Source: Pirellulales bacterium
Lineage (GTDB): Bacteria > Planctomycetota > Planctomycetia > Pirellulales > JAICIG01
DNA: 64,000 nucleotides
Assembly (NCBI GenBank): GCA_035531595.1
Contig: DATKSN010000233.1
Coordinates: 4,414 to 68,413 of the forward strand
Direction: 5' to 3'
Below are positions 28,657 through 52,707 of this stretch, in pieces; position 1 is the stretch's first letter, and every line of letters starts with the position of its first letter. The translations under genes were made by a program, and so were the position numbers. The notes under the pieces were generated by a model. That model ran no database searches and had not been told where the DNA came from. It worked only from the letters and a program-made list of their open reading frames with translations.

Positions 28657-31600
28657 ATGGATCCACGCAGTTCCAACCCACAATCCGAAGCGGCCGCGCA
28701 AGAAATGCTCGGCTATTTGAACTTCTCGTCCGGGACGGCCGACCCCAAGTTTCAACGCAACGCGAATTTCCTTTTCCGCTCGATTCTTGACGAATCGGCC
28801 CAGGGCCAAGGGGTCTGGCAACAAGTTGGCTGCCGCCTGCGAGACCAGCTCGCCCGGCTGCGTGGCACGTCGGCCGCGTTCGATGAAGTCGAGCAAGCCC
28901 AAGCGGTGATTGGACTTGTGTTCGATCATTTGTCGCCCCACTACCGCGAGTTTCATCACGATTTATTGAGCCACCAAAGCTCCGACGCGCTATTCGGCCC
29001 TTTCTTCCTGGTTCGAGCGTGCGAAGCGGTGCTCCAACAGGGGCCCCCCTTGGATGAGTCGGAGCGAATCGTCCCGGCCGCGCTGGCGCAATTGAATGAC
29101 TTCCTGGGACATCGCCCTGTCGCCGTGCTCCAGACCCCCCAACGGATCGAGCCCTACGCGCATGAATGGGTATGCCCCATCCCCCTCTACTTGAGGGGAG
29201 TTGGCGTCGCCTGCGGATCGTACCACGATCTGGTCGAGCAGGCCCTGGCGATTCTCGAAGCAACCGATTCCGAAATCTTGGAGCAGGCATGCTTCGACCC
29301 GGCTTTGCTCGACGAACTGGCGCTCGACCCGCGGGCTTACGACTTCGATCATCCGGTCAACAAGCGGCCCAACTACCAGTTCGGCCAATGGGATCCGCAC
29401 CGCATCGACAATCAAGGGCGCTACCGCCGCTTCGTGTTGCAGGAAGTGACGCTCGAGGCCCTTGGCAAGCGTCTGGCTGGACAGGTTTCGCTACCGGCCG
29501 ACGAGTTGCTGTTCGAGGCCGGCGCGGTCTTGGCGGGAACGATGCTGATGGCCTCGGCCGTCAGCGGCCGCGGTCCCGACACGCACGATTCGGGCACGAC
29601 CTTGGCGACTCTGGTTCCGCGGATCGCCGCCTTCCGCGACTCTTTCTATCCGCGATTGCTCGCCGGAGTCGCGGGGCCGCACGGCGAGAGACTGCGGGCC
29701 GAAGCGGCGACGCTTCGTCAACCGTTCGGCGGCGCGCGGCAACACTTGAACCAGTGCCTGGCCCGTTTGCGGGCCGTGCAGCTTCAACATGTTCACCTGG
29801 CCCAGTTGTTCGCGCGGATGGGTTTTCCCGAAGCCAGCAGCCGGCAAGCCCAGGTCGTGCCGGTGGCTTCGGCGCGCTTACTGTGCGAGATCAACGGCCG
29901 GCTGACCGCCGGGCATCACGCCATCGACCGCGGGCAGCTTGCCCACGCCGCGCGGCTGCTCGCGGAAATCGAAGACCTGCTCCAGCGGGCGATCGAGTGC
30001 GGTGCGCTGGTCGATCCGTGGAACGTGCTGGGGTTTCAGGGCCAGTTCAGCTTGTTTCCGGCCATGGAAAACAGCGTGCGCGACCACCGCGTCGACGTGT
30101 TGATCCATCTGATTGAGCATGTGTTCGGACTTTACGCGAGGCTCGAAGGCGAGGCGGCCGCCCGAGGCGACGGCCCGCTCGCCACGAAACTCGCGGCCGA
30201 CATGAAGATACGAGCGCGCTGGTGGGACCAGTTCGCGACGCTCGAAGTGGCGAGTGTGGCCCACGTATCGGGACGCGAGGCGGCCGAATCGGCGTCGCAT
30301 GTGGCCGACGCCTTGGGCGCCTGGCAACGCGCCGGCGCCGCGGCCGGCGACGTGGCCTTCTGGCGCCAGCACGTCGATCGCTTCACCTCGCCCAAGTCGT
30401 ACGCGTTGGTCGTCGATGCGCTCCTGGAGCAGCGCGATTTCGTCGCCGCGCTGGCGCTCTTGATCCAGTGGCTGGGACAGGCCGCCGAAGTGCCGCTGGT
30501 CGAAGGAGAATACTCGTTCCACGAGTTGGCCGATCGATGGTTGCGCGGCCTCGGGCCGGCCGTCACACGTTGGCCCCTGACCGTGAAGTTCTTCGATTAT
30601 CTCGAAGCCAACGCCGAGGAATACTGGGAGGTGCCGCGGTTCGAGTTCGACGCCGGACGCGCGCCGGGCGGCCGGCGCGACCGCGACGACGAAGCCGAGC
30701 CGGACGCGGAGCACGACCCGGATTTGTTCAGCGCCGCTTACGACGACGTCGTCTACCGCGACAGCACCGGCGACGGCCATGATGCCGACATGCTCGAAGG
30801 GCCCAGCGCGGCGAACGATTTCGAGTTGGAATTCGAAGCGACACGGCTCGAACAGCGATTGGCGTTTCTTTCGACGTTGGCCCGGCTTTGGAAACTGGCC
30901 TCCGGCATGTCGGCGTCGGCCACCGACACGCGCGCGCGCGACGCGATGCTTCGCGGATGGTTTTCACGCGCCGTGTCGAACCGGCGCGAACTGTTCAAGC
31001 TGCTGCGCGCGATACACCGTTTCCGCGTGCCCGCCCCCCGCGGAACGCACGAATCGCTGGTCGAATACGACCGCCGGCGGTTGCTCAAAGAGTCGCTGCT
31101 GGCGCGGATCGTGGCGGCCTGCGTCGAAACCTCGTCAGCCGCGCGCTGGCTCCTGGCCGCCTGCCATGTCGCCGACGGCGACGGTGGCGACGGTGGCGAG
31201 AGTGGCGAGAGTGGCGATGGCGGCGAGAGTGGCGACGGCGGCGACAGCGGCGACGGCGGCGACGGCGGCGAGAGCAAGGATCTGGCCGATTGGGAACGAC
31301 GATCCGTCGGCGTGCTGCGGGCCATGTTTCGCGGCGACGCCGATCAAGTGCGCGCTCGGTTTCCCCAATTGCGCCTCATGCTTGAGCGCGAACCCATCTT
31401 GTACGTGCCCTTGTCGCGGCACGGCGCGCCCGGTCAAATCGTGGGCGCCCAGACGCTGCAACACCTGCTGTTGGCCCTCCTGCGCGGGCTGCCGCGGCTG
31501 GGACTCTTGACGGAGACCTGCCAGGTGATCGCCACGGCGCAGGCCATGGAGCAACATCGCCCCGACCGGGAAGGAGCGGTCACCGAGTTCGACCGATTGT

Positions 31601-32679
31601 TCGAGGTCGGATATCGGGCGATCGTCGAAGCGCTGGTCAGGTCCGCCGGCGACACCCGCGCCGCCGGCGCCACATCGGCCGGAGGCCAAAGTCACGAGCT
31701 CATCGCGGCGACCGACTCCGAGCTGATCGATTCACTGCAAATGGTGACCGAGCGGCTGCTCAAAGGCTGGCTCGGGCATAGCCGCTCGTTGCGGTTGAGC
31801 GTGCTTGAAAAAGTCGCCGAGCACGACCGCTGGCAGGCCCTGGTCGGCTTCATCGAGCGTTATGGCCACGACCTGTTCACACCGCGCTTCTTCAACCTGG
31901 GCAACCTGCGGGCCATCCTTCATCAGGGAGTCGACGCCTATCTCGACGGCCTGGAGGCGAGCGACGCGGCCGACGAGATCGGGCTCTTGTCGGAACTCGA
32001 CGCTCAGGTTCCCCGTGCCACGGTGGTCGAACAGTTGAGCCTGGTGATTGAGGCGATCGTGGAGAACTTCGGCGAATTCAAGGACTACAACAGCACCACG
32101 ACCCAATCGGACCAGGGCGAGTTGCTTTACGTGCTGTTGGATTTCCTGCGGCTCAAGGCGGGTTACGACCGTTTCGCCTGGAACATCAAGCCGGTCGTGC
32201 TGGCCCATGAGATTCTGGTGCGGCACGGCCGCATGGCGGCGGCCGAACTCTGGCGGCGAGCGGTCGCCGATCGCACGAGCCGGGCCGCCGATTGGCACCT
32301 GCGGCGGTTGGGTGAACTGGTCGAACAGTACAGCGTCAGGCTGCCGACGATCGCCGACCGCTTGGGCGAGCGGTTCGTCCGGCCGCTGGCCATCGACCGC
32401 GTCCGCGCGTTGATTCGGCCGGCCATCGAGGAAGCACGCCGCGGCGATCCGCCGACCGCCTTCGACCTCTTGGAGCAGGAACTCGCCGAATTCACCGAGC
32501 ACCCCTCCGGAGCGGGACTCGACGTACCCGCCTGGTTGACCGCGCTGGAGAACGAAGTGGCCGAGGTCGGCCCCACGCGCCGCCGCGGACTGGATGCCGA
32601 TGACGTGCCGCCGCCGGTGCCCCTGCTGCCGCTCGCGTGGGACGCGGTGCAACAGCAGCTTCAGACGGGAGAATGGTGA
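28657..32679 (+). CDS. Very large hypothetical protein (1340 aa), predicted mostly helical, no recognised domain
   Basis: Single long ORF with consistent GC3 codon bias. I see no P-loop, catalytic motif or TM segment. It contains an internal (D/E)(G/S)G low-complexity tract. Confidence 0.75.
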   Translation: MDPRSSNPQSEAAAQEMLGYLNFSSGTADPKFQRNANFLFRSILDESAQGQGVWQQVGCRLRDQLARLRGTSAAFDEVEQAQAVIGLVFDHLSPHYREFHHDLLSHQSSDALFGPFFLVRACEAVLQQGPPLDESERIVPAALAQLNDFLGHRPVAVLQTPQRIEPYAHEWVCPIPLYLRGVGVACGSYHDLVEQALAILEATDSEILEQACFDPALLDELALDPRAYDFDHPVNKRPNYQFGQWDPHRIDNQGRYRRFVLQEVTLEALGKRLAGQVSLPADELLFEAGAVLAGTMLMASAVSGRGPDTHDSGTTLATLVPRIAAFRDSFYPRLLAGVAGPHGERLRAEAATLRQPFGGARQHLNQCLARLRAVQLQHVHLAQLFARMGFPEASSRQAQVVPVASARLLCEINGRLTAGHHAIDRGQLAHAARLLAEIEDLLQRAIECGALVDPWNVLGFQGQFSLFPAMENSVRDHRVDVLIHLIEHVFGLYARLEGEAAARGDGPLATKLAADMKIRARWWDQFATLEVASVAHVSGREAAESASHVADALGAWQRAGAAAGDVAFWRQHVDRFTSPKSYALVVDALLEQRDFVAALALLIQWLGQAAEVPLVEGEYSFHELADRWLRGLGPAVTRWPLTVKFFDYLEANAEEYWEVPRFEFDAGRAPGGRRDRDDEAEPDAEHDPDLFSAAYDDVVYRDSTGDGHDADMLEGPSAANDFELEFEATRLEQRLAFLSTLARLWKLASGMSASATDTRARDAMLRGWFSRAVSNRRELFKLLRAIHRFRVPAPRGTHESLVEYDRRRLLKESLLARIVAACVETSSAARWLLAACHVADGDGGDGGESGESGDGGESGDGGDSGDGGDGGESKDLADWERRSVGVLRAMFRGDADQVRARFPQLRLMLEREPILYVPLSRHGAPGQIVGAQTLQHLLLALLRGLPRLGLLTETCQVIATAQAMEQHRPDREGAVTEFDRLFEVGYRAIVEALVRSAGDTRAAGATSAGGQSHELIAATDSELIDSLQMVTERLLKGWLGHSRSLRLSVLEKVAEHDRWQALVGFIERYGHDLFTPRFFNLGNLRAILHQGVDAYLDGLEASDAADEIGLLSELDAQVPRATVVEQLSLVIEAIVENFGEFKDYNSTTTQSDQGELLYVLLDFLRLKAGYDRFAWNIKPVVLAHEILVRHGRMAAAELWRRAVADRTSRAADWHLRRLGELVEQYSVRLPTIADRLGERFVRPLAIDRVRALIRPAIEEARRGDPPTAFDLLEQELAEFTEHPSGAGLDVPAWLTALENEVAEVGPTRRRGLDADDVPPPVPLLPLAWDAVQQQLQTGEW

Positions 32680-48131: not shown

Positions 48132-49562
48132 TTACCAGCGGAATTCGGCCCTGGTGGTCAAGCCGTCGAACGTGACCGTGTCGCTTCGGCTCGAGGTGTT
48201 GTTGGCATAACTGTTGTTTTGCACGGCGGCCATGAAGTTGTTGGGCGACACCGTGTTGAACCAGGCGGCGAAATAATAACCGCCGCTGATGCGAATCCGG
48301 CCGGTTCGGTTTTGCCAGCCTAGGCCGAGTTCGTATTCCAAAATCGGCACGGCGCGGCTGTCGTTCCAAGCGGCCATGGCCTGGAGCGCCTGGAAATTGT
48401 TGGTCTGGGAGTAGCCCGAGCGGAACGTGCCCACCAACAGGCTGGCAAAGCCCTTACTGTAGGCCATCAAGCCGCAGTTCCTGGCTTTGCGTTCGCCTTG
48501 CAAGCCGATGCGGGTGCCGAGACCGTCGAAGTTCACGTTGCTGGCAACATTGGTGACGCCAGGACCCAGCGGCTGGGCCTCGCGGAACGCCTCGTGCAGG
48601 TTGGCGTATCGCGTGCCGACGGTGTAGTTCAGGGCCCAGTTGTCACCGCCGCTCAGCAGGCGCATATAGTCGACGTCGGCGAACTGAAAGCGAACGTTGT
48701 AGCGGCCCAACGCGCCAAGGCTGTCGGAGACCGCGTTGTACGTCTGGGGCAGCGTGACCAGTGAGTGAACCGACAGAGGCGGGTTCGCAAACAGAGAACT
48801 GTTGGTTTCCGATTGGAAATAAGTATAGGTCGCGACGATGCTCGTACAGCGGTTCAATGCCTTGGTGAATCCGGCGCGGTAGCCGATCGAGTAATTTGGA
48901 CTGACCGTCGCGACTTGTCCGAAGGGCACGGCGGTCGCCGGGTCGGTGCCGTTGCGGACTTCGGCGTAGGCGACGTCGGCGCCGCGCGGACGCAGGTACA
49001 GCATTTCGGCGAAAACACTGTTCCTGTGTGCCCAGAAGGGGGAGCAACACGGCTTGCGGCAGCCGTCGCCACAACACGCCGGGTTGCCGCCTTGGGCCGT
49101 GTTGTCGGCGTCGTCGCCGGACCCATAGGCGGCGAACGGCTCGGCGCCGGTCGTGTACGGGGCATCGGAGTCGTCGGCGGGGTCGGCCAAAACGTCGCCG
49201 GGCATCTGGCCACTGCCGAGCATCTGGCCACTGCCCTGCCCCCACGGGTCGTACTTCCCTGGATGGCTAGCGTAGCGGTATCCATGCACGTTGCGCGAAA
49301 TGTCCGGCGACGCGGTGCTGGGGTTTTCGTCGTCGGCTGGATCATCGTCGCCGGTTGACTCATCGTCGGCGATTGAATCGTCGTCGCCGGTTGACTCATC
49401 GTCGGCGGCCGTTTGGGACGACTTGCCGGCCAGGGTGGCGCCCATCCATTGTCGGACGGGCGGGCTTTGCTGTTGCGCCCGTAACGGATGGCCTACGCAC
49501 AGCAGCGCCGCCACCGTCGTGGCAGTGAAAATGACGGTTTTCACGTCTGTACCCTTTCGCAT
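48132..49562 (-). CDS. Putative outer-membrane beta-barrel protein
   Basis: Start at ATG 49562 (MRKGTDVKTVIFTATTVAALLCVGHPLRAQQ signal). An acidic repeat (DDESTGDDD) and a Cys cluster (CCGDGCRKPCCSPFW) are present. Alternating beta-strand-like sequence ends in a C-terminal aromatic ...TRAEFRW. Confidence 0.65.
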   Translation of the reverse strand: MRKGTDVKTVIFTATTVAALLCVGHPLRAQQQSPPVRQWMGATLAGKSSQTAADDESTGDDDSIADDESTGDDDPADDENPSTASPDISRNVHGYRYASHPGKYDPWGQGSGQMLGSGQMPGDVLADPADDSDAPYTTGAEPFAAYGSGDDADNTAQGGNPACCGDGCRKPCCSPFWAHRNSVFAEMLYLRPRGADVAYAEVRNGTDPATAVPFGQVATVSPNYSIGYRAGFTKALNRCTSIVATYTYFQSETNSSLFANPPLSVHSLVTLPQTYNAVSDSLGALGRYNVRFQFADVDYMRLLSGGDNWALNYTVGTRYANLHEAFREAQPLGPGVTNVASNVNFDGLGTRIGLQGERKARNCGLMAYSKGFASLLVGTFRSGYSQTNNFQALQAMAAWNDSRAVPILEYELGLGWQNRTGRIRISGGYYFAAWFNTVSPNNFMAAVQNNSYANNTSSRSDTVTFDGLTTRAEFRW

Positions 49563-49893
49563 GGATTTGTCGGTCGTAAGGAATGACGGGGTTGCATGTT
49601 TTCCGCCGATTCGTCTGGTGAATCTCATTCGGCGGTTTGTAACGGTTGCTCCAAGGTTGCCGATTGTTCCGACAAAAGCGGCGCAAACCGCCCATTTTCA
49701 TGCCGTGGTTTCTCGCCATGAATCCGGCATAACCCAAAGGTTGCGACGATGTGGCAGTTCCCGTCCGGCTGGTAGTTTCGGAAAGCGGCTTGCCTAACTC
49801 ACGCGGTCGGAAAAGTTCGACGATAGCTCACCATAGCTGCAGCCTAGAACCCCTAGTTTTTCAACCTTACTGCTCCCACGTAGGAGACCTCCC

Positions 49894-50334
49894 ATGAAAG
49901 CGAAGCTGTTTTTTTCGTTACTGGCCGTTGCCGGTTTCGTGCTGGCCAGCGCCAATAGCGCCAACGCCGGCCTGTTCCACCACAGGCGCGGTTGCTGCGA
50001 GCCGACCTGTTGCGAGCCGACCTGCGGCGCGCCGGCCGCTTGCGAACCCACCTGCGGCGCGCCGGCCGCTTGCGAACCCGCCTGCTGCGAGCCGACCTGC
50101 TGCGAGCCCGCCGGCTGCAATACGTGCGGCAACACCTGCTGCGGCAAGAAGCACCGGCTGCGGGGCTTGTTCCGCAAGCTGTGCAGCCGGAACAAGTGCT
50201 GCCAGCCGACGTGCTGCCAGCCGACGTGCTGCGAGCCAACGTGCGGCCAGCCGTCGTGCGCCGCGCCGTCGTGCGCCGAGCCGACTTGCGGCCAGCCGTC
50301 GTGCGCCGAGCCCACCTGCGGCGGCAACTACTAA
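49894..50334 (+). CDS. Secreted cysteine-rich repeat protein (C-[EQ]-P-[TS]-C pentapeptides)
   Basis: GGAGA RBS and signal peptide MKAKLFFSLLAVAGFVLASANSANA. The mature 121 aa contain 29 Cys by my count: CCEPTCCEPTCGAPAACEPTC...CCQPTCCQPTCCEPTCGQPSC... The underlying DNA is a 15-nt repeat, so all frames are open. A strong terminator follows. Confidence 0.75.
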   Translation: MKAKLFFSLLAVAGFVLASANSANAGLFHHRRGCCEPTCCEPTCGAPAACEPTCGAPAACEPACCEPTCCEPAGCNTCGNTCCGKKHRLRGLFRKLCSRNKCCQPTCCQPTCCEPTCGQPSCAAPSCAEPTCGQPSCAEPTCGGNY

Positions 50335-50395
50335 GCGCCGCGGGAGCCTCCACGGCGGCTCACCCCCACTCCGACGGATCGATCCGTCGTCCGAA

Positions 50396-50432
50396 ACGGC
50401 CCCTTGCGGCAGCAAGCGGGCCGTTTTTTTTT
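50396..50432 (+). terminator. Rho-independent terminator of the Cys-rich protein gene
   Basis: acggccccttgc-ggca-gcaagcgggccgt stem-loop followed by a run of nine T. Confidence 0.85.
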
Positions 50433-50442
50433 CGCATCCAGG

Positions 50443-50560
50443 CTATAGCCCGTATTATTCATGGTCCGGGGAGGAACTCGCGCTCTGTGCCGTAGCGAAA
50501 TTCGCAAGAATTCTGGCGTAACTCGCGTCCACGGCCTGACTTCTTGCGAAGCCAGCTACG
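50443..50560 (+). mobile_element. CTAG-TIR MITE-like element, copy 1 (left end degenerate, no right TIR)
   Basis: ctatagcccgtattattcatggtccggggaggaactcgcgc...cttcttgcgaagccagctac. Confidence 0.75.
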
Positions 50561-50741: not shown

Positions 50742-52568
50742 ATGGCCTCGCTTTGGTTTCGCTGTCAGCGCCGCGGCAACTTTCCGTGGCGGCCGGTTTG
50801 CTTCGTGGGACTCGTTGGTTGTTGTTGGGCGGCCGTGGCGGTCGCGGGCGCCCCGTCCGGCGCACCGTCCGGCGCCGACGCACTGTTGGAGGAACGACTG
50901 GATTGCGGAGAATTCGCTCCCGCCTTCGAGCAGGCGCGCCTCTTAGCCGATCCGGTCGAGCGCGACGGTCTACTCAAGCGGGTCGCCCAGGCGCAGGCCG
51001 GCGCCGGAGAACGTGCCGCGTCGTTGGCGACGATCGGTTCGATGCGCGACGACCTGGCGCGCGGCGCGGCCCTCGACGACATCGCCACGCGAACGCCCTC
51101 CGGCGGGCGGCCCGAGGGGGCGCCTGGCGGCGGAGGGATGAACAATTTTGGAGAACTCATCGAGCTGATCACGTCGACGATCAAACCCGAAAGTTGGGAC
51201 GAGACCGGCGGTCCGGGTACGATCAAGTCGTACCAGAACGGCGTTTACGTCGATCCCACAGGCGTCGTTCGACCGGTGACCGACCGCGACGGCGGCAGCC
51301 GGCTCGCTGAGTTCCGCCGCGCGGCTCGCCGCGCCGTTCACTCCAGCGACGCCCGGCGGACGTCGCCGTCGCGGAAGGTGTCGCTCAACCGTCTGGAACG
51401 CGCCGCGCAGTTGCGGCTGGCGGCGGGCCGCGCCCTGGACGAGGACATGTTCGTGCTCGCCGGCTTGCAGCGAGTCGAGTACGTGCTCGCCTACCCCGAG
51501 ACGGGCGACATCGTGCTGGCGGGTCCGGCCGCCGATTGGAAGTACGACCGCGAAAACCGCATCGTCGGCGCCGACACCGGCCGCCCCGTGTTGCAACTCG
51601 ACGACCTGGTGGTGCTGGCGCGGCACTTCAACGCCGCAGGGGGCGGTGCTTCCCGGGGAGGCGAATTGGCGGGCGGCGAATTGGCAGGCGGCGAATTCGG
51701 CTGTTCGATCGATCCCACCGAGAAAGGCCTGGCCAAGGCTCGCGCGTTTGCCGAAGCATCGAGCGCCAAGCCGCTCAAGCCGGGCCAACGCGGCAAGTGG
51801 CTGGAACAGCTTCGTAGTCAAATCGGCATGCAAGACGTGCGTGTCTTCGGCATCGACGGGCACTCGCGCGTCGCCCAGGTGATCGTCGAGGCCGACTACC
51901 GCATGAAGCTGATCGGGATCGGATTGGAAGAGGGAACGGCCGACGTGCCCAGCTACCTGCGCATGATCCAGATGGCCGCCGGCGAATCGCCGCGGCCCAT
52001 GGATGTGCTCCGCTGGTGGTTCACCGTCAATTACGACGCCGTGCTCACCAGCCCCGACCGCGACGTGTTCGAGATCCGCGGACAGGGGGTCAAAGTGCTC
52101 GGCGAGAACGAGATGCTCACCGCGGCGGGCAAGCAAATCCACACGGACAACGCCGACCCGCTGAACGCGGAATTCGCCCACAACTTCACCAGGCATTTCA
52201 CGGACCTGGCGGCCAAGTACCCGATTTACGCCGAGCTTCAGAACGTCTTCGACCTGGCCCTGGTCGCTTCGCTGTTGAAGTCCGAAGGGCTGGCCGACCA
52301 GGTTGGCTGGCACATGCGGTGCTTCGGCGACCCCAACCAGTACACGGTGGCCCGTTTTCCGGTGCCCAAGGCGGTCGACACGGTGATCAACCATCGCGTC
52401 GTACACGGCAAGCAGATCCTGGCGGCCGTCAGCGGCGGTGTCACAGCCGATTTCCGCGAGTTGGTCACGCCCGATGCGATTGCGATCGACCGCAAGGGGG
52501 CGTTGGGCAGCCGGCGCTCCCGTTCCGCGCCCGACGACGCGCCCCATGCGGCCTGGTGGTGGGACTAA
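50742..52568 (+). CDS. Secreted hypothetical protein (608 aa)
   Basis: Start at ATG 50742 with an N-terminal hydrophobic segment. It carries the planctomycete-typical motif FGELIELITSTIKPESWDETGGPGTI and the in-frame tandem repeats APSGAPSG and GELAGGELAGGEF. Confidence 0.7.
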   Translation: MASLWFRCQRRGNFPWRPVCFVGLVGCCWAAVAVAGAPSGAPSGADALLEERLDCGEFAPAFEQARLLADPVERDGLLKRVAQAQAGAGERAASLATIGSMRDDLARGAALDDIATRTPSGGRPEGAPGGGGMNNFGELIELITSTIKPESWDETGGPGTIKSYQNGVYVDPTGVVRPVTDRDGGSRLAEFRRAARRAVHSSDARRTSPSRKVSLNRLERAAQLRLAAGRALDEDMFVLAGLQRVEYVLAYPETGDIVLAGPAADWKYDRENRIVGADTGRPVLQLDDLVVLARHFNAAGGGASRGGELAGGELAGGEFGCSIDPTEKGLAKARAFAEASSAKPLKPGQRGKWLEQLRSQIGMQDVRVFGIDGHSRVAQVIVEADYRMKLIGIGLEEGTADVPSYLRMIQMAAGESPRPMDVLRWWFTVNYDAVLTSPDRDVFEIRGQGVKVLGENEMLTAAGKQIHTDNADPLNAEFAHNFTRHFTDLAAKYPIYAELQNVFDLALVASLLKSEGLADQVGWHMRCFGDPNQYTVARFPVPKAVDTVINHRVVHGKQILAAVSGGVTADFRELVTPDAIAIDRKGALGSRRSRSAPDDAPHAAWWWD

Positions 52569-52707
52569 CTAGCCCGGATTATTCATGGTCCAGTAGCTGG
52601 CTTCGCAAGAAGTCAGGCCGTGGACGCGAGTTACGCCAGAATTCTTGCGAATTCTGCTACAGCACAGTGCGCGAGTTCCTCCCCGGACCATGAATAATCC
52701 GGGCTAG
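52569..52707 (-). mobile_element. CTAG-TIR MITE-like element, copy 2 (complete, 139 bp, perfect 23-bp terminal inverted repeats)
   Basis: ctagcccggattattcatggtcc ... ggaccatgaataatccgggctag. The core is the reverse complement of copies 1 and 3. No ORF. Confidence 0.85.

What the first reader, a model, noticed from the sequence alone, without database searches (positions are those of the whole stretch)
49894..50334. Secreted 24%-cysteine protein built from CC-E/Q-P-T-C pentapeptides (keratin-associated-protein-like)
After a clear signal peptide, the 121-aa mature protein has 29 Cys by my count. It forms two modules, each introduced by a basic GLF motif (GLFHHRRGCC..., GLFRKLCSRNKCC...). The modules are made of C-[EQ]-P-[TS]-C and C-G/A-x-P-[AS]-x-C units encoded by a 15-nt DNA repeat. 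The gene has its own RBS and a textbook terminator. It is divergent from a putative OM beta-barrel gene and upstream of another secreted protein gene. The repeat is strikingly convergent with mammalian high-sulfur keratin-associated proteins. Classical chemical analyses described planctomycete envelopes as protein-rich with abundant cystine and proline, so a disulfide-crosslinked envelope component is one hypothesis. A periplasmic metal-binding (metallothionein-like) protein is another.
Basis: partly seen in the sequence, partly recalled or inferred. Interest (0 to 1): 0.7.

Follow-up and report, generated by a model that had tools for sequence, protein, structure and literature searches.

The report
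Secreted cysteine-repeat protein family of planctomycetes
This is a real, strongly conserved gene for a small exported protein that is one-quarter cysteine; it belongs to a large, uncurated planctomycete family that may be part of the disulfide-bonded, cysteine- and proline-rich envelope seen in old chemical analyses, though its function is untested.

Summary
Window 49894..50334 (+) encodes a 146-aa protein: a Sec signal peptide, then 121 residues with 29 Cys and 16 Pro, in two acidic CC-E/Q-P-T-C arrays (15-nt DNA period), each preceded by a basic GLF motif. It has an AGGAG ribosome-binding site and a strong terminator.

The gene is real. Only this frame is open in all 76 related loci. Orthologue pairs give dN/dS of 0.04-0.2. 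All 160 retrieved relatives have a signal-peptide-like N-terminus.

It belongs to a family of at least 372 clusters (50% identity). All 70 genomic loci found are Planctomycetota. No NCBIfam model matches and I found no paper. RefSeq calls one homologue 'keratin-like protein'.

The Pfam keratin hit (61 bits) depends on residue order, not composition. Only 21 of 150 members share it, so it is convergence.

Function is not established. I favour a disulfide cross-linking envelope protein (about 0.4). The neighbouring outer-membrane porin family carries the same style of Cys cluster before its barrel in 62 of 67 homologues. Cys parity is random, the arrays are acidic, and no metal-related genes recur nearby. 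Metal or thiol binding remains a rival (about 0.2). Tryptic proteomics would miss this protein.

The parts
49882..49886 (+). Shine-Dalgarno AGGAG, 7 nt before the ATG
   Evidence: Read. A GGAG, AGGAG or GAGG sits 5-10 nt before the ATG in nearly all 76 related loci.
49894..50334 (+). Coding sequence of the 146-aa Cys-repeat protein (stop codon included)
   Evidence: GC3 is 88% in this frame. It is the only frame open in 76 of 76 loci. dN/dS is 0.04-0.2 in orthologue pairs.
49894..49968 (+). Sec (SPase I) signal peptide, 25 aa, with A-N-A before the cleavage site and no lipobox
   Evidence: Sequence. AF2 predicts a helix at residues 3-21. A signal-peptide-like N-terminus is present in all 160 relatives.
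49969..49992 (+). N-terminal basic aromatic motif GLFHHRRG (net +2, two His)
   Evidence: A GLF, FGLL or FELLNRMLG type motif follows the cleavage site across the family.
49993..50142 (+). Cys array 1: 50 aa, 16 Cys, 8 Pro, net charge -6 (CCEPT and CGAPAACEPT units)
   Evidence: TRF period 15/30 at 49993-50118. Composition. AF2 gives no regular structure, pLDDT below 50.
50143..50196 (+). Basic linker GKKHRLRGLFRKLCSRNK containing the second GLF motif
   Evidence: net +8 for the 21-aa segment measured there, which also includes the next CCQ. AF2 predicts a helix at residues 90-99 with low confidence. The highest hydrophobic moment in the protein is here, but it is not above shuffles.
50197..50331 (+). 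Cys array 2: 45 aa, 12 Cys (CCQPT, CCEPT, CGQPS, CAAPS, CAEPT units). This is the stretch that matches Pfam Keratin_B2_2.
   Evidence: TRF period 15/45 at 50196-50322. Pfam best stretch is residues 102-142.
50393..50432 (+). Intrinsic terminator: 15-bp bulged hairpin followed by U9
   Evidence: -25.8 kcal/mol, z = -4.5. Also found in the scan. 44 of 76 related loci have a hairpin plus T-run within 120 nt of the stop.
48132..49562 (-). Divergent neighbour: Lpg1974/Legionella_OMP-family outer-membrane porin. Proposed as a possible disulfide partner, not as a conserved neighbour.
   Evidence: PF05150, 91 bits. NCBI name.
49044..49076 (-). Pre-barrel Cys cluster of the porin, CCGDGCRKPCC, directly before the barrel-start motif SPFWAHR
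   Evidence: 62 of 67 homologues have at least 4 Cys in the 35 aa before the barrel (median 6), against a median of 2 in the ~292-aa barrel. The family HMM aligns weakly to this cluster.
50742..52568 (+). Downstream recurrent neighbour: secreted 608-aa DUF1598 protein, probably a separate transcript
   Evidence: PF07643. It is the next same-strand gene in 17 of 65 loci with enough sequence, with gaps of 128-451 nt. The terminator lies between the two genes.

Best explanation
SHOWN: this is a genuine, monocistronic gene with a strong ribosome-binding site, under strong purifying selection. It encodes a small protein that is exported by the Sec pathway and has no membrane anchor. The mature protein is non-globular. 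It alternates basic Leu/Phe/His-rich segments with acidic arrays of CC-E/Q-P-T-C-type pentapeptides. It belongs to a large family found here only in Planctomycetota, in which array length and module number (1-4) vary freely.

INFERRED (about 0.4): the arrays act as disulfide cross-linking handles. After export the many cysteines are oxidised and form mainly intermolecular disulfides. Partners would be other copies of the protein and similar Cys clusters on envelope proteins, such as the periplasmic N-terminal extension of the Lpg1974-family porins. The result would be a cystine- and proline-rich, SDS-resistant matrix. Prolines keep the arrays extended. The basic segments would dock onto acidic arrays or anionic envelope components. 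This would work like the keratin-associated-protein matrix of hair and like the chlamydial outer membrane complex, without being homologous to either.
For: REAL GENE: the Cys frame is open in 76 of 76 loci, against 2, 2, 45, 17 and 16 of 76 for the other five frames. dN/dS is 0.04-0.2 with changes concentrated at codon position 3, for example [1, 4, 24]. A Shine-Dalgarno is present in nearly all loci and a terminator in 44 of 76; the window's terminator folds at -25.8 kcal/mol.

EXPORTED: all 160 relatives have a signal-peptide-like N-terminus. There is no lipobox, transmembrane segment or sorting domain.

FAMILY: 372 cluster representatives at E <= 0.001 and 83 at E <= 1e-10. All 70 genomic loci are Planctomycetota, including cultured strains.

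NON-GLOBULAR: AF2 mean pLDDT is 48 and the arrays have no regular structure.

CROSS-LINKING READING:
- Cys parity is random, 117 even and 109 odd of 226, with a median of 30 Cys. Complete intramolecular pairing is therefore not conserved.
- The arrays are acidic (-6 and -3) and contain no Lys, unlike metallothionein clusters.
- Pirellulales porins of the neighbouring gene's family carry the same style of cluster before the barrel, for example CCQPACCPSTCCEPFWAHR, in 62 of 67 homologues.
- Trypsin gives no 7-35-aa peptide, and 81% of the protein lies in 53- and 45-aa peptides with 16 and 12 Cys. That would explain its absence from published wall proteomes.
- A TlpA-like thioredoxin-fold lipoprotein recurs in the syntenic block. 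This is weak evidence.
Against: There is no expression, localisation or redox data. Published wall proteomes found a different Cys-rich family (YTV proteins), not this one (PMC8567305, PMC12673574). Planctomycetes are now known to have peptidoglycan components, so a protein wall is not required. His enrichment in the linkers (8%) and the C-x-C and CC motifs would suit metal binding equally well. The porin adjacency is unique to this window. The porin-cluster resemblance is short and compositionally biased, at 7-17 bits. No dedicated oxidase or partner is strictly co-located: DUF1598 follows in 17 of 65 loci and Hpt is divergent in 24 of 67.
Confidence: 0.4

Rival explanations
1. Periplasmic metal- or thiol-buffering protein that works like a metallothionein. 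The Cys arrays, together with the His in the linkers, would bind Cu(I), Zn, Cd or similar ions, or act as a sacrificial thiol or redox buffer.
For: The protein is 24% Cys with CC, C-x-C and C-x3-C motifs, and many relatives have CGCEPxCG units. Linkers are His-enriched (8%), for example HHRR and HHHK. The apo form is predicted to be disordered, like apo-metallothioneins. Random Cys parity is compatible with this reading.
Against: No metallothionein or other metal-binding Pfam family matches any of 150 members. Export into a normally oxidising compartment works against free thiolates. The arrays are acidic and Lys-free, whereas metal-thiolate clusters of metallothioneins are typically flanked by Lys (established knowledge). 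Among recurrent neighbours in 76 loci there are no metal efflux, chaperone or sensor genes. No riboswitch lies upstream. Pro at every fifth residue is atypical of metallothioneins. A similar cluster on an outer-membrane porin is harder to explain as metal storage.
Confidence: 0.2
2. Secreted bioactive or adhesive product. One version is a polyprotein precursor cut at the basic linkers into Cys-rich peptides with antimicrobial or signalling roles. Another is an extracellular adhesive or holdfast component.
For: The protein has a signal peptide and a modular design of 1-4 units separated by K/R-rich linkers with dibasic sites such as GKKHR and CKKKR. It has no anchor. A sub-family carries an extra Pro/Ala-rich C-terminal tail.
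Against: There is no conserved Cys framework or even Cys count, as folded disulfide-rich peptides have. The arrays are acidic, not cationic. No protease, ABC exporter or immunity gene recurs nearby. AF2 finds no fold. Repeat number varies freely between close relatives, which does not suit a defined peptide product.
Confidence: 0.1
3. Not a real gene: an open frame produced by a GC-rich 15-nt DNA repeat, with another frame or strand, or none, being functional.
For: All six frames are open across the repeat in this window. Antisense ORFs of the repeat also cluster across loci.
Against: Across 76 loci with GC of 48-71%, only the Cys frame is always open. The open antisense frames are explained by the fact that reverse complements of Cys, Glu, Pro, Thr and Ala codons cannot be stop codons. 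dN/dS is 0.04-0.2. The start codon, Shine-Dalgarno, signal peptide and terminator are conserved. GC3 is 88% in this frame.
Confidence: 0.02

Closest known systems
Mammalian high-sulfur keratin-associated proteins (Pfam PF13885 Keratin_B2_2, PF01500 Keratin_B2)
   Same: Both use the same pentapeptide chemistry (CC-Q/E-P-S/T-C repeats), are 20-25% Cys, Pro-rich and non-globular. KAPs are presumed to act through dense disulfide cross-links. The window protein scores 61.4 and 34.7 bits, above both gathering cut-offs.
   Different: This protein is bacterial, has a Sec signal peptide (KAPs are cytosolic), and has basic GLF linkers. The hit vanishes on shuffling, even with Cys positions fixed. Only 21 and 5 of 150 family members match the two models. 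This is convergence, not homology.
Chlamydial outer membrane complex: MOMP porin plus the Cys-rich proteins OmcA and OmcB
   Same: Both are in the PVC superphylum. In Chlamydia, exported Cys-rich proteins and a porin are heavily disulfide cross-linked and give envelope rigidity (PMC6752827). Here a small exported Cys-rich protein sits beside a porin whose family has a Cys cluster.
   Different: There is no sequence similarity: no Chlam_OMP3 or Chlam_OMP6 hit. OmcA is a lipoprotein, and this protein has no lipobox. Cross-linking is not shown here.
Planctomycete YTV-domain cell-wall proteins
   Same: They are Cys-rich, signal-peptide-bearing proteins restricted to planctomycetes, and were found in wall preparations (PMC8567305, PMC12673574).
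   Different: There is no YTV Pfam match for the window protein or for any of 150 members. This family consists of small, low-complexity repeat proteins. It has not been reported in wall proteomes, and trypsin cannot yield identifiable peptides from it.
Metallothioneins (bacterial SmtA/BmtA type and eukaryotic)
   Same: Both are small, about 25-30% Cys, have CC and C-x-C motifs, and are disordered without a ligand.
   Different: No family match. This protein is exported, acidic and Pro-rich in its arrays, contains Phe, His and Tyr, and has no metal-related gene context.

Membership tests
Keratin-associated proteins (PF13885 / PF01500) | Score above Pfam's gathering cut-off | tested here: met
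   61.4 bits (cut-off 27) and 34.7 bits (cut-off 28.7). However, 6 shuffles score 0 and the reversed sequence scores 26 bits. The match rests on a short repeat.
Keratin-associated proteins (PF13885 / PF01500) | The match is shared by the protein's own homologues, which would indicate common descent | tested here: not met
   Only 21 of 150 members hit PF13885 and 5 of 150 hit PF01500 at E <= 0.001. P0002, P0004 and P0009 have no hit.
Keratin-associated proteins (PF13885 / PF01500) | Cytosolic protein without a signal peptide, from a mammalian hair or epidermal lineage | tested here: not met
   A Sec signal peptide is present. All 70 loci are Planctomycetota.
Metallothionein | Match to a metallothionein family model | tested here: not met
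   No such Pfam or NCBIfam hit for the window protein or for 150 relatives.
Metallothionein | Binds metal ions stoichiometrically through thiolate clusters | not testable with these tools
   This needs ICP-MS or spectroscopy on purified protein.
Chlamydial OmcA/OmcB Cys-rich envelope proteins | Sequence membership (Chlam_OMP3 / Chlam_OMP6) and, for OmcA, a lipobox | tested here: not met
   No Pfam hit. The cleavage region is A-N-A|G with no Cys at +1.
Chlamydial OmcA/OmcB Cys-rich envelope proteins | Disulfide cross-linked to a porin in a detergent-insoluble complex | not testable with these tools
   Only circumstantial: a Cys cluster on the porin family.
Planctomycete YTV wall proteins | YTV repeat domain | tested here: not met
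   No YTV hit at E <= 1 for the window protein or at E <= 0.001 for 150 members.
The uncurated planctomycete 'keratin-like protein' family (defined here by alignments A1 and A4) | Sec signal peptide, then a basic aromatic motif, then at least one acidic Cys array, a basic linker and a further array, with 10-28% Cys overall | tested here: met
   The window protein is the top hit of the family HMM (6.9e-40). The architecture is seen. Homologue WP_131282790.1 of Blastopirellula marina is named 'keratin-like protein'.

The most novel reading that the evidence does not exclude
This family would be the main cystine- and proline-rich matrix of the SDS-resistant planctomycete envelope described in the 1980s. 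It would have been missed by every proteome because trypsin cannot cut it into identifiable peptides. It would be a bacterial counterpart of the hair-cortex KAP matrix, evolved independently to the same CC-x-P-x pentapeptide, and disulfide-bonded to matching Cys clusters on the periplasmic N-terminus of the major Lpg1974-type porins. That would parallel the chlamydial outer membrane complex within the PVC superphylum.
Probability: 0.25. Interest if true: 0.8.

Novelty: new variant of a known kind. Interest (0 to 1): 0.58.

Why it matters
Planctomycete envelopes have been debated for 40 years: protein wall versus peptidoglycan, and what the cystine-rich SDS-resistant layer actually is. This work identifies a large, strongly conserved family of exported proteins whose composition (Cys and Pro, with Glu, Thr and Ala) fits that old chemistry, and shows why standard proteomics would miss it. 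It also points to a candidate partner, the Cys cluster on the porins. Together these make the question directly testable in cultured strains that carry the gene, such as Blastopirellula marina DSM 3645, Bremerella cremea and Adhaeretor mobilis. It is also a clean case of sequence-level convergence between a bacterial protein and mammalian hair proteins, strong enough to pass Pfam's curated thresholds and to have produced a misleading RefSeq name.

Tried and rejected
- **Locus search with alignment A1.** It failed because no conserved 7-10-column stretch existed. The tighter alignment A2 worked.
- **First gene caller.** My GC3-based caller missed members in lower-GC genomes. I replaced it with HMM searches of six-frame ORFs.
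- **P0001 DNA.** No DNA is held for the closest homologue, so I ran the codon tests on other orthologue pairs.
- **AF2 of the Cys protein.** Confidence was low (pLDDT 48), so I ran no fold search on it.
- **Amphipathic linker helix.** Rejected as a claim: the hydrophobic moment of 0.64 is reached by 521 of 2000 shuffles.
- **Riboswitch or known RNA near the gene.** Only noise.
- **Type-B partners c11, c6 and c20.** No Pfam family, apart from weak P-loop hints for c11.
- **Second Cys-rich gene at 30587-31507.** Rejected: it is an off-frame ORF of a 1340-aa gene.
- **The 114-nt inverted repeat around DUF1598.** I considered an invertible or mobile cassette. It turned out to be two copies of a dispersed repeat.
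- **Operon with DUF1598.** Rejected for this window, because a strong terminator lies between the two genes.
- **Literature.** Searches for DUF1598, for 'keratin-like protein' with Planctomycetes, and for cystine/proline envelope chemistry found no description of this family.

Full report
**1. Observation**

The window holds an ORF at 49894..50334 (+) of 146 codons. Its product starts with a canonical Sec signal peptide, MKAKLFFSLLAVAGFVLASANSANA. The 121-residue mature part has 29 Cys (24.0%), 16 Pro, 12 Gly, 12 Ala, 11 Thr and 9 Glu.

It divides into four segments:
- GLFHHRRG, net charge +2.
- A 50-residue array with 16 Cys, net charge -6.
- A basic linker, GKKHRLRGLFRKLCSRNK.
- A 45-residue array with 12 Cys.

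Tandem Repeats Finder reports 15-nt periodic arrays at 49993-50118 and 50196-50322. AGGAG lies 7 nt before the ATG. A 15-bp bulged hairpin (-25.8 kcal/mol, z = -4.5) followed by U9 lies 59 nt after the stop.

**2. Is it a gene?**

Yes. A word-indexed search found 13 relatives. An exhaustive profile search of 1.84 billion cluster representatives found 372 at E <= 0.001 and 83 at E <= 1e-10. All 160 sequences retrieved have a signal-peptide-like N-terminus.

A scan of one genome per species returned 70 confirmed loci. In 76 non-redundant loci, with GC from 48% to 71%, the Cys frame is the only one always open. The two other sense frames are open in 2 of 76 each. The antisense frames are open in 45, 17 and 16 of 76. 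That is expected, because the reverse complements of Cys, Glu, Pro, Thr, Ala and Gly codons are never stop codons.

Close orthologue pairs give dN/dS of 0.04-0.2, with substitutions piled on codon position 3. For example, L029 vs L030 gives [1, 4, 24] and L056 vs L059 gives [2, 2, 32]. Nearly every locus has a GGAG-type Shine-Dalgarno, and 44 of 76 have a hairpin plus T-run within 120 nt of the stop. The gene is therefore typically monocistronic and built for efficient translation.

**3. The family**

The architecture is constant. A signal peptide is followed by a basic aromatic motif (GLF, FGLL or FELLNRMLG) and an acidic Cys array (CCEPxCC, CCAPEPxCC or CGCEPxCG). A basic Leu/Phe/His-rich linker (for example GLLHRLFHR or GLFARLRAK) then leads to another array. 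There are 1-4 modules and repeat number varies freely.

Residues within the arrays are mostly Ala, Pro, Glu, Gly, Ser, Asp and Thr. Linkers are mostly Leu, Arg, Gly, Ala, Lys, His (8%) and Phe.

All 70 loci are Planctomycetota. Most are Pirellulales: Blastopirellula marina DSM 3645, Bremerella, Aeoliella, Adhaeretor, Stieleria, Neorhodopirellula, Bythopirellula and Lacipirellulaceae. Some are Planctomycetaceae (Fuerstiella, Planctomicrobium). One MAG is labelled Phycisphaera.

No NCBIfam model hits any of 150 members. RefSeq names the B. marina protein WP_131282790.1 'keratin-like protein'; other records say 'hypothetical protein'. I found no paper on the family.

**4. The keratin resemblance**

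The window protein scores 61.4 bits on Pfam Keratin_B2_2 (cut-off 27) and 34.7 bits on Keratin_B2 (cut-off 28.7). Controls:
- Four composition-preserving shuffles score nothing.
- Two shuffles with Cys positions fixed score nothing.
- The reversed sequence scores 26 bits.

The hit therefore reflects the actual CC-E/Q-P-T-CC order, not composition alone. However, only 21 of 150 family members hit PF13885 and 5 of 150 hit PF01500, and the window protein is the best of them. Given also the signal peptide and the bacterial distribution, this is motif-level convergence and not membership of the keratin family.

**5. Genomic context**

Unbiased clustering of neighbours in 76 loci gives two recurrent settings.
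- **Type A:** [GCV_T-like< LarN-like< TlpA-like lipoprotein> PGK>] Hpt< (receiver>) CYS> DUF1598> ApbE< cytochrome c'-like>.
- **Type B:** P-loop membrane protein> lipoprotein(s)> CYS> polytopic membrane protein>. None of the type-B partners has a Pfam family.

Counts where enough flanking sequence exists:
- DUF1598 is the next same-strand gene in 17 of 65 loci, with gaps of 128-451 nt.
- Hpt is divergent upstream in 24 of 67.
- The type-B lipoprotein is upstream in 15 of 67.

Type A is a long block that includes housekeeping genes, so adjacency alone is weak evidence of functional coupling. In this window only DUF1598 remains next to the gene, and a strong terminator separates the two. No metal-homeostasis genes recur, and Rfam finds no riboswitch.

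DUF1598 is a large family, with at least 3981 relatives. Its AF2 model is confident (pLDDT 80, pTM 0.77). It has no solved homologue by sequence and no significant Foldseek match. The other fold libraries were unavailable.

**6. An unexpected link to the divergent porin**

The neighbour at 48132..49562 (-) is an Lpg1974/Legionella_OMP-family porin. Just before its barrel-start motif PFWAHR it has CCGDGCRKPCC, at window 49044-49076.

Among its homologues, 62 of 67 with a recognisable barrel start have at least 4 Cys in the preceding 35 residues (median 6; 47 have at least 6). The ~292-residue barrel has a median of 2. Many clusters read like the small protein's arrays: CCQPACCPSTCCEPFW, SCCSNGCCPTSCCQECCEPFW and CCPTSCCQTSCCTPFW.

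The family HMM aligns its first array to these clusters, but weakly (7-17 bits; short and compositionally biased). By the usual topology of outer-membrane barrels, this N-terminal extension should face the periplasm. That is an inference.

**7. Mechanism**

AF2 finds no fold for the Cys protein (pLDDT 48). It predicts only the signal-peptide helix and a low-confidence helix in the linker. Cys parity across 226 distinct mature proteins is random, 117 even and 109 odd, with a median of 30 Cys. A fixed intramolecular disulfide framework is therefore not conserved. That argues against a folded knottin- or defensin-like product, and leaves intermolecular cross-linking or free-thiol or metal chemistry.

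I favour cross-linking (about 0.4) for these reasons:
- The protein is exported.
- The arrays are acidic and lack Lys, unlike metallothionein clusters.
- Pro at every fifth residue favours extended, exposed arrays.
- A porin family carries matching clusters.
- There is no metal-related gene context.

The chlamydial outer membrane complex shows that such a system exists in the PVC superphylum (PMC6752827).

Wall proteomes reported YTV proteins, not this family. However, trypsin would give no peptide of 7-35 residues from this protein. 81% of it falls in 53- and 45-residue peptides with 16 and 12 Cys, so its absence from those data is uninformative.

Metal or thiol buffering remains a serious rival (about 0.2), favoured by the His-rich linkers and the C-x-C motifs. 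A processed-peptide or adhesive role is possible but poorly supported (about 0.1). I withdrew the amphipathic-helix claim for the linker, because shuffles match its hydrophobic moment.

**8. Verdict**

The gene belongs to a large, uncurated, planctomycete-restricted family of exported Cys-repeat proteins under strong purifying selection. Its function is unproven.

I classify it as a new variant of a known kind, namely Cys-rich envelope proteins of PVC bacteria. It is homologous to none of them, and it converges on mammalian keratin-associated proteins.

Noticed in passing
window 49044-49076 (-), within the porin gene 48132..49562 (-); homologues P0283-P0360: Lpg1974/Legionella_OMP-family porins of Pirellulales carry a conserved Cys cluster directly before the barrel-start motif PFWAHR. 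62 of 67 have at least 4 Cys in the preceding 35 aa (median 6), against a median of 2 in the barrel. The clusters often have the same CC-x-x-x-CC style as the small protein.
   Followed up: yes
window 50446-50559 and 52593-52706: A 114-nt inverted repeat (96% complementary) brackets the DUF1598 gene and starts 14 nt after the Cys gene's terminator. Its 34-nt core occurs in 95 stretches, 94 of them on contigs of the sister samples Ga0307372, Ga0307373 and Ga0307374, sometimes in tandem (L131 x4, L127 x3, L107 x3). The element folds into a long hairpin (-43.5 kcal/mol, z = -2.1). It is a dispersed REP/MITE-like repeat of this organism, not a locus-specific feature.
   Followed up: partly
window 50742-52568 (+): DUF1598 is a very large family (at least 3981 relatives) of secreted ~600-aa proteins. 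The AF2 model is confident (pLDDT 80, pTM 0.77), with no solved homologue and no significant Foldseek match in the PDB. It has a near-invariant single Cys in an FGCSI motif and a conserved C-terminal WWWD.
   Followed up: partly
loci L031, L034, L046, L055, L056, L059, L072, L077, L079, L083, L084: A second, operon-like setting for family members (type B): a ~500-aa P-loop protein with membrane segments, one to three lipoproteins, the Cys-repeat gene, then a ~320-aa polytopic membrane protein, all on one strand. None of the partners has a Pfam family. Bremerella genomes carry type A and type B copies about 10 kb apart.
   Followed up: partly
proteins P0012, P0020, P0024, P0029, P0034, P0038, P0040, P0046, P0058, P0063, P0073, P0074: A sub-family has a distinct N-terminus (MKWN...SQSFGFELLNRMLG) and a conserved Pro/Ala-rich C-terminal tail (...AAPMPPAPMADPSAS...RR.V...) that the window protein lacks. 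The tail could be an anchoring or sorting segment.
   Followed up: no
loci L017, L019, L023, L024, L026, L032, L044, L045, L062, L065 (about 2.5 kb upstream of the Cys gene): A lipoprotein with a C-terminal thioredoxin-fold (Redoxin/TlpA-like) domain and a WCGWC active site recurs in the type-A syntenic block. It is not present in this window.
   Followed up: partly
window 50373-50391: A perfect 9+9 palindrome (CGACGGATC|GATCCGTCG) lies between the stop codon and the terminator hairpin. Its significance is unknown.
   Followed up: no
window 30587-31507 (+ frame) inside gene 28657..32679 (+): This is the second most Cys-dense frame of the window (14 Cys in 60 aa). It is an off-frame ORF of a 1340-aa gene. 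The real gene contains a GDGGESGDGG low-complexity stretch.
   Followed up: yes
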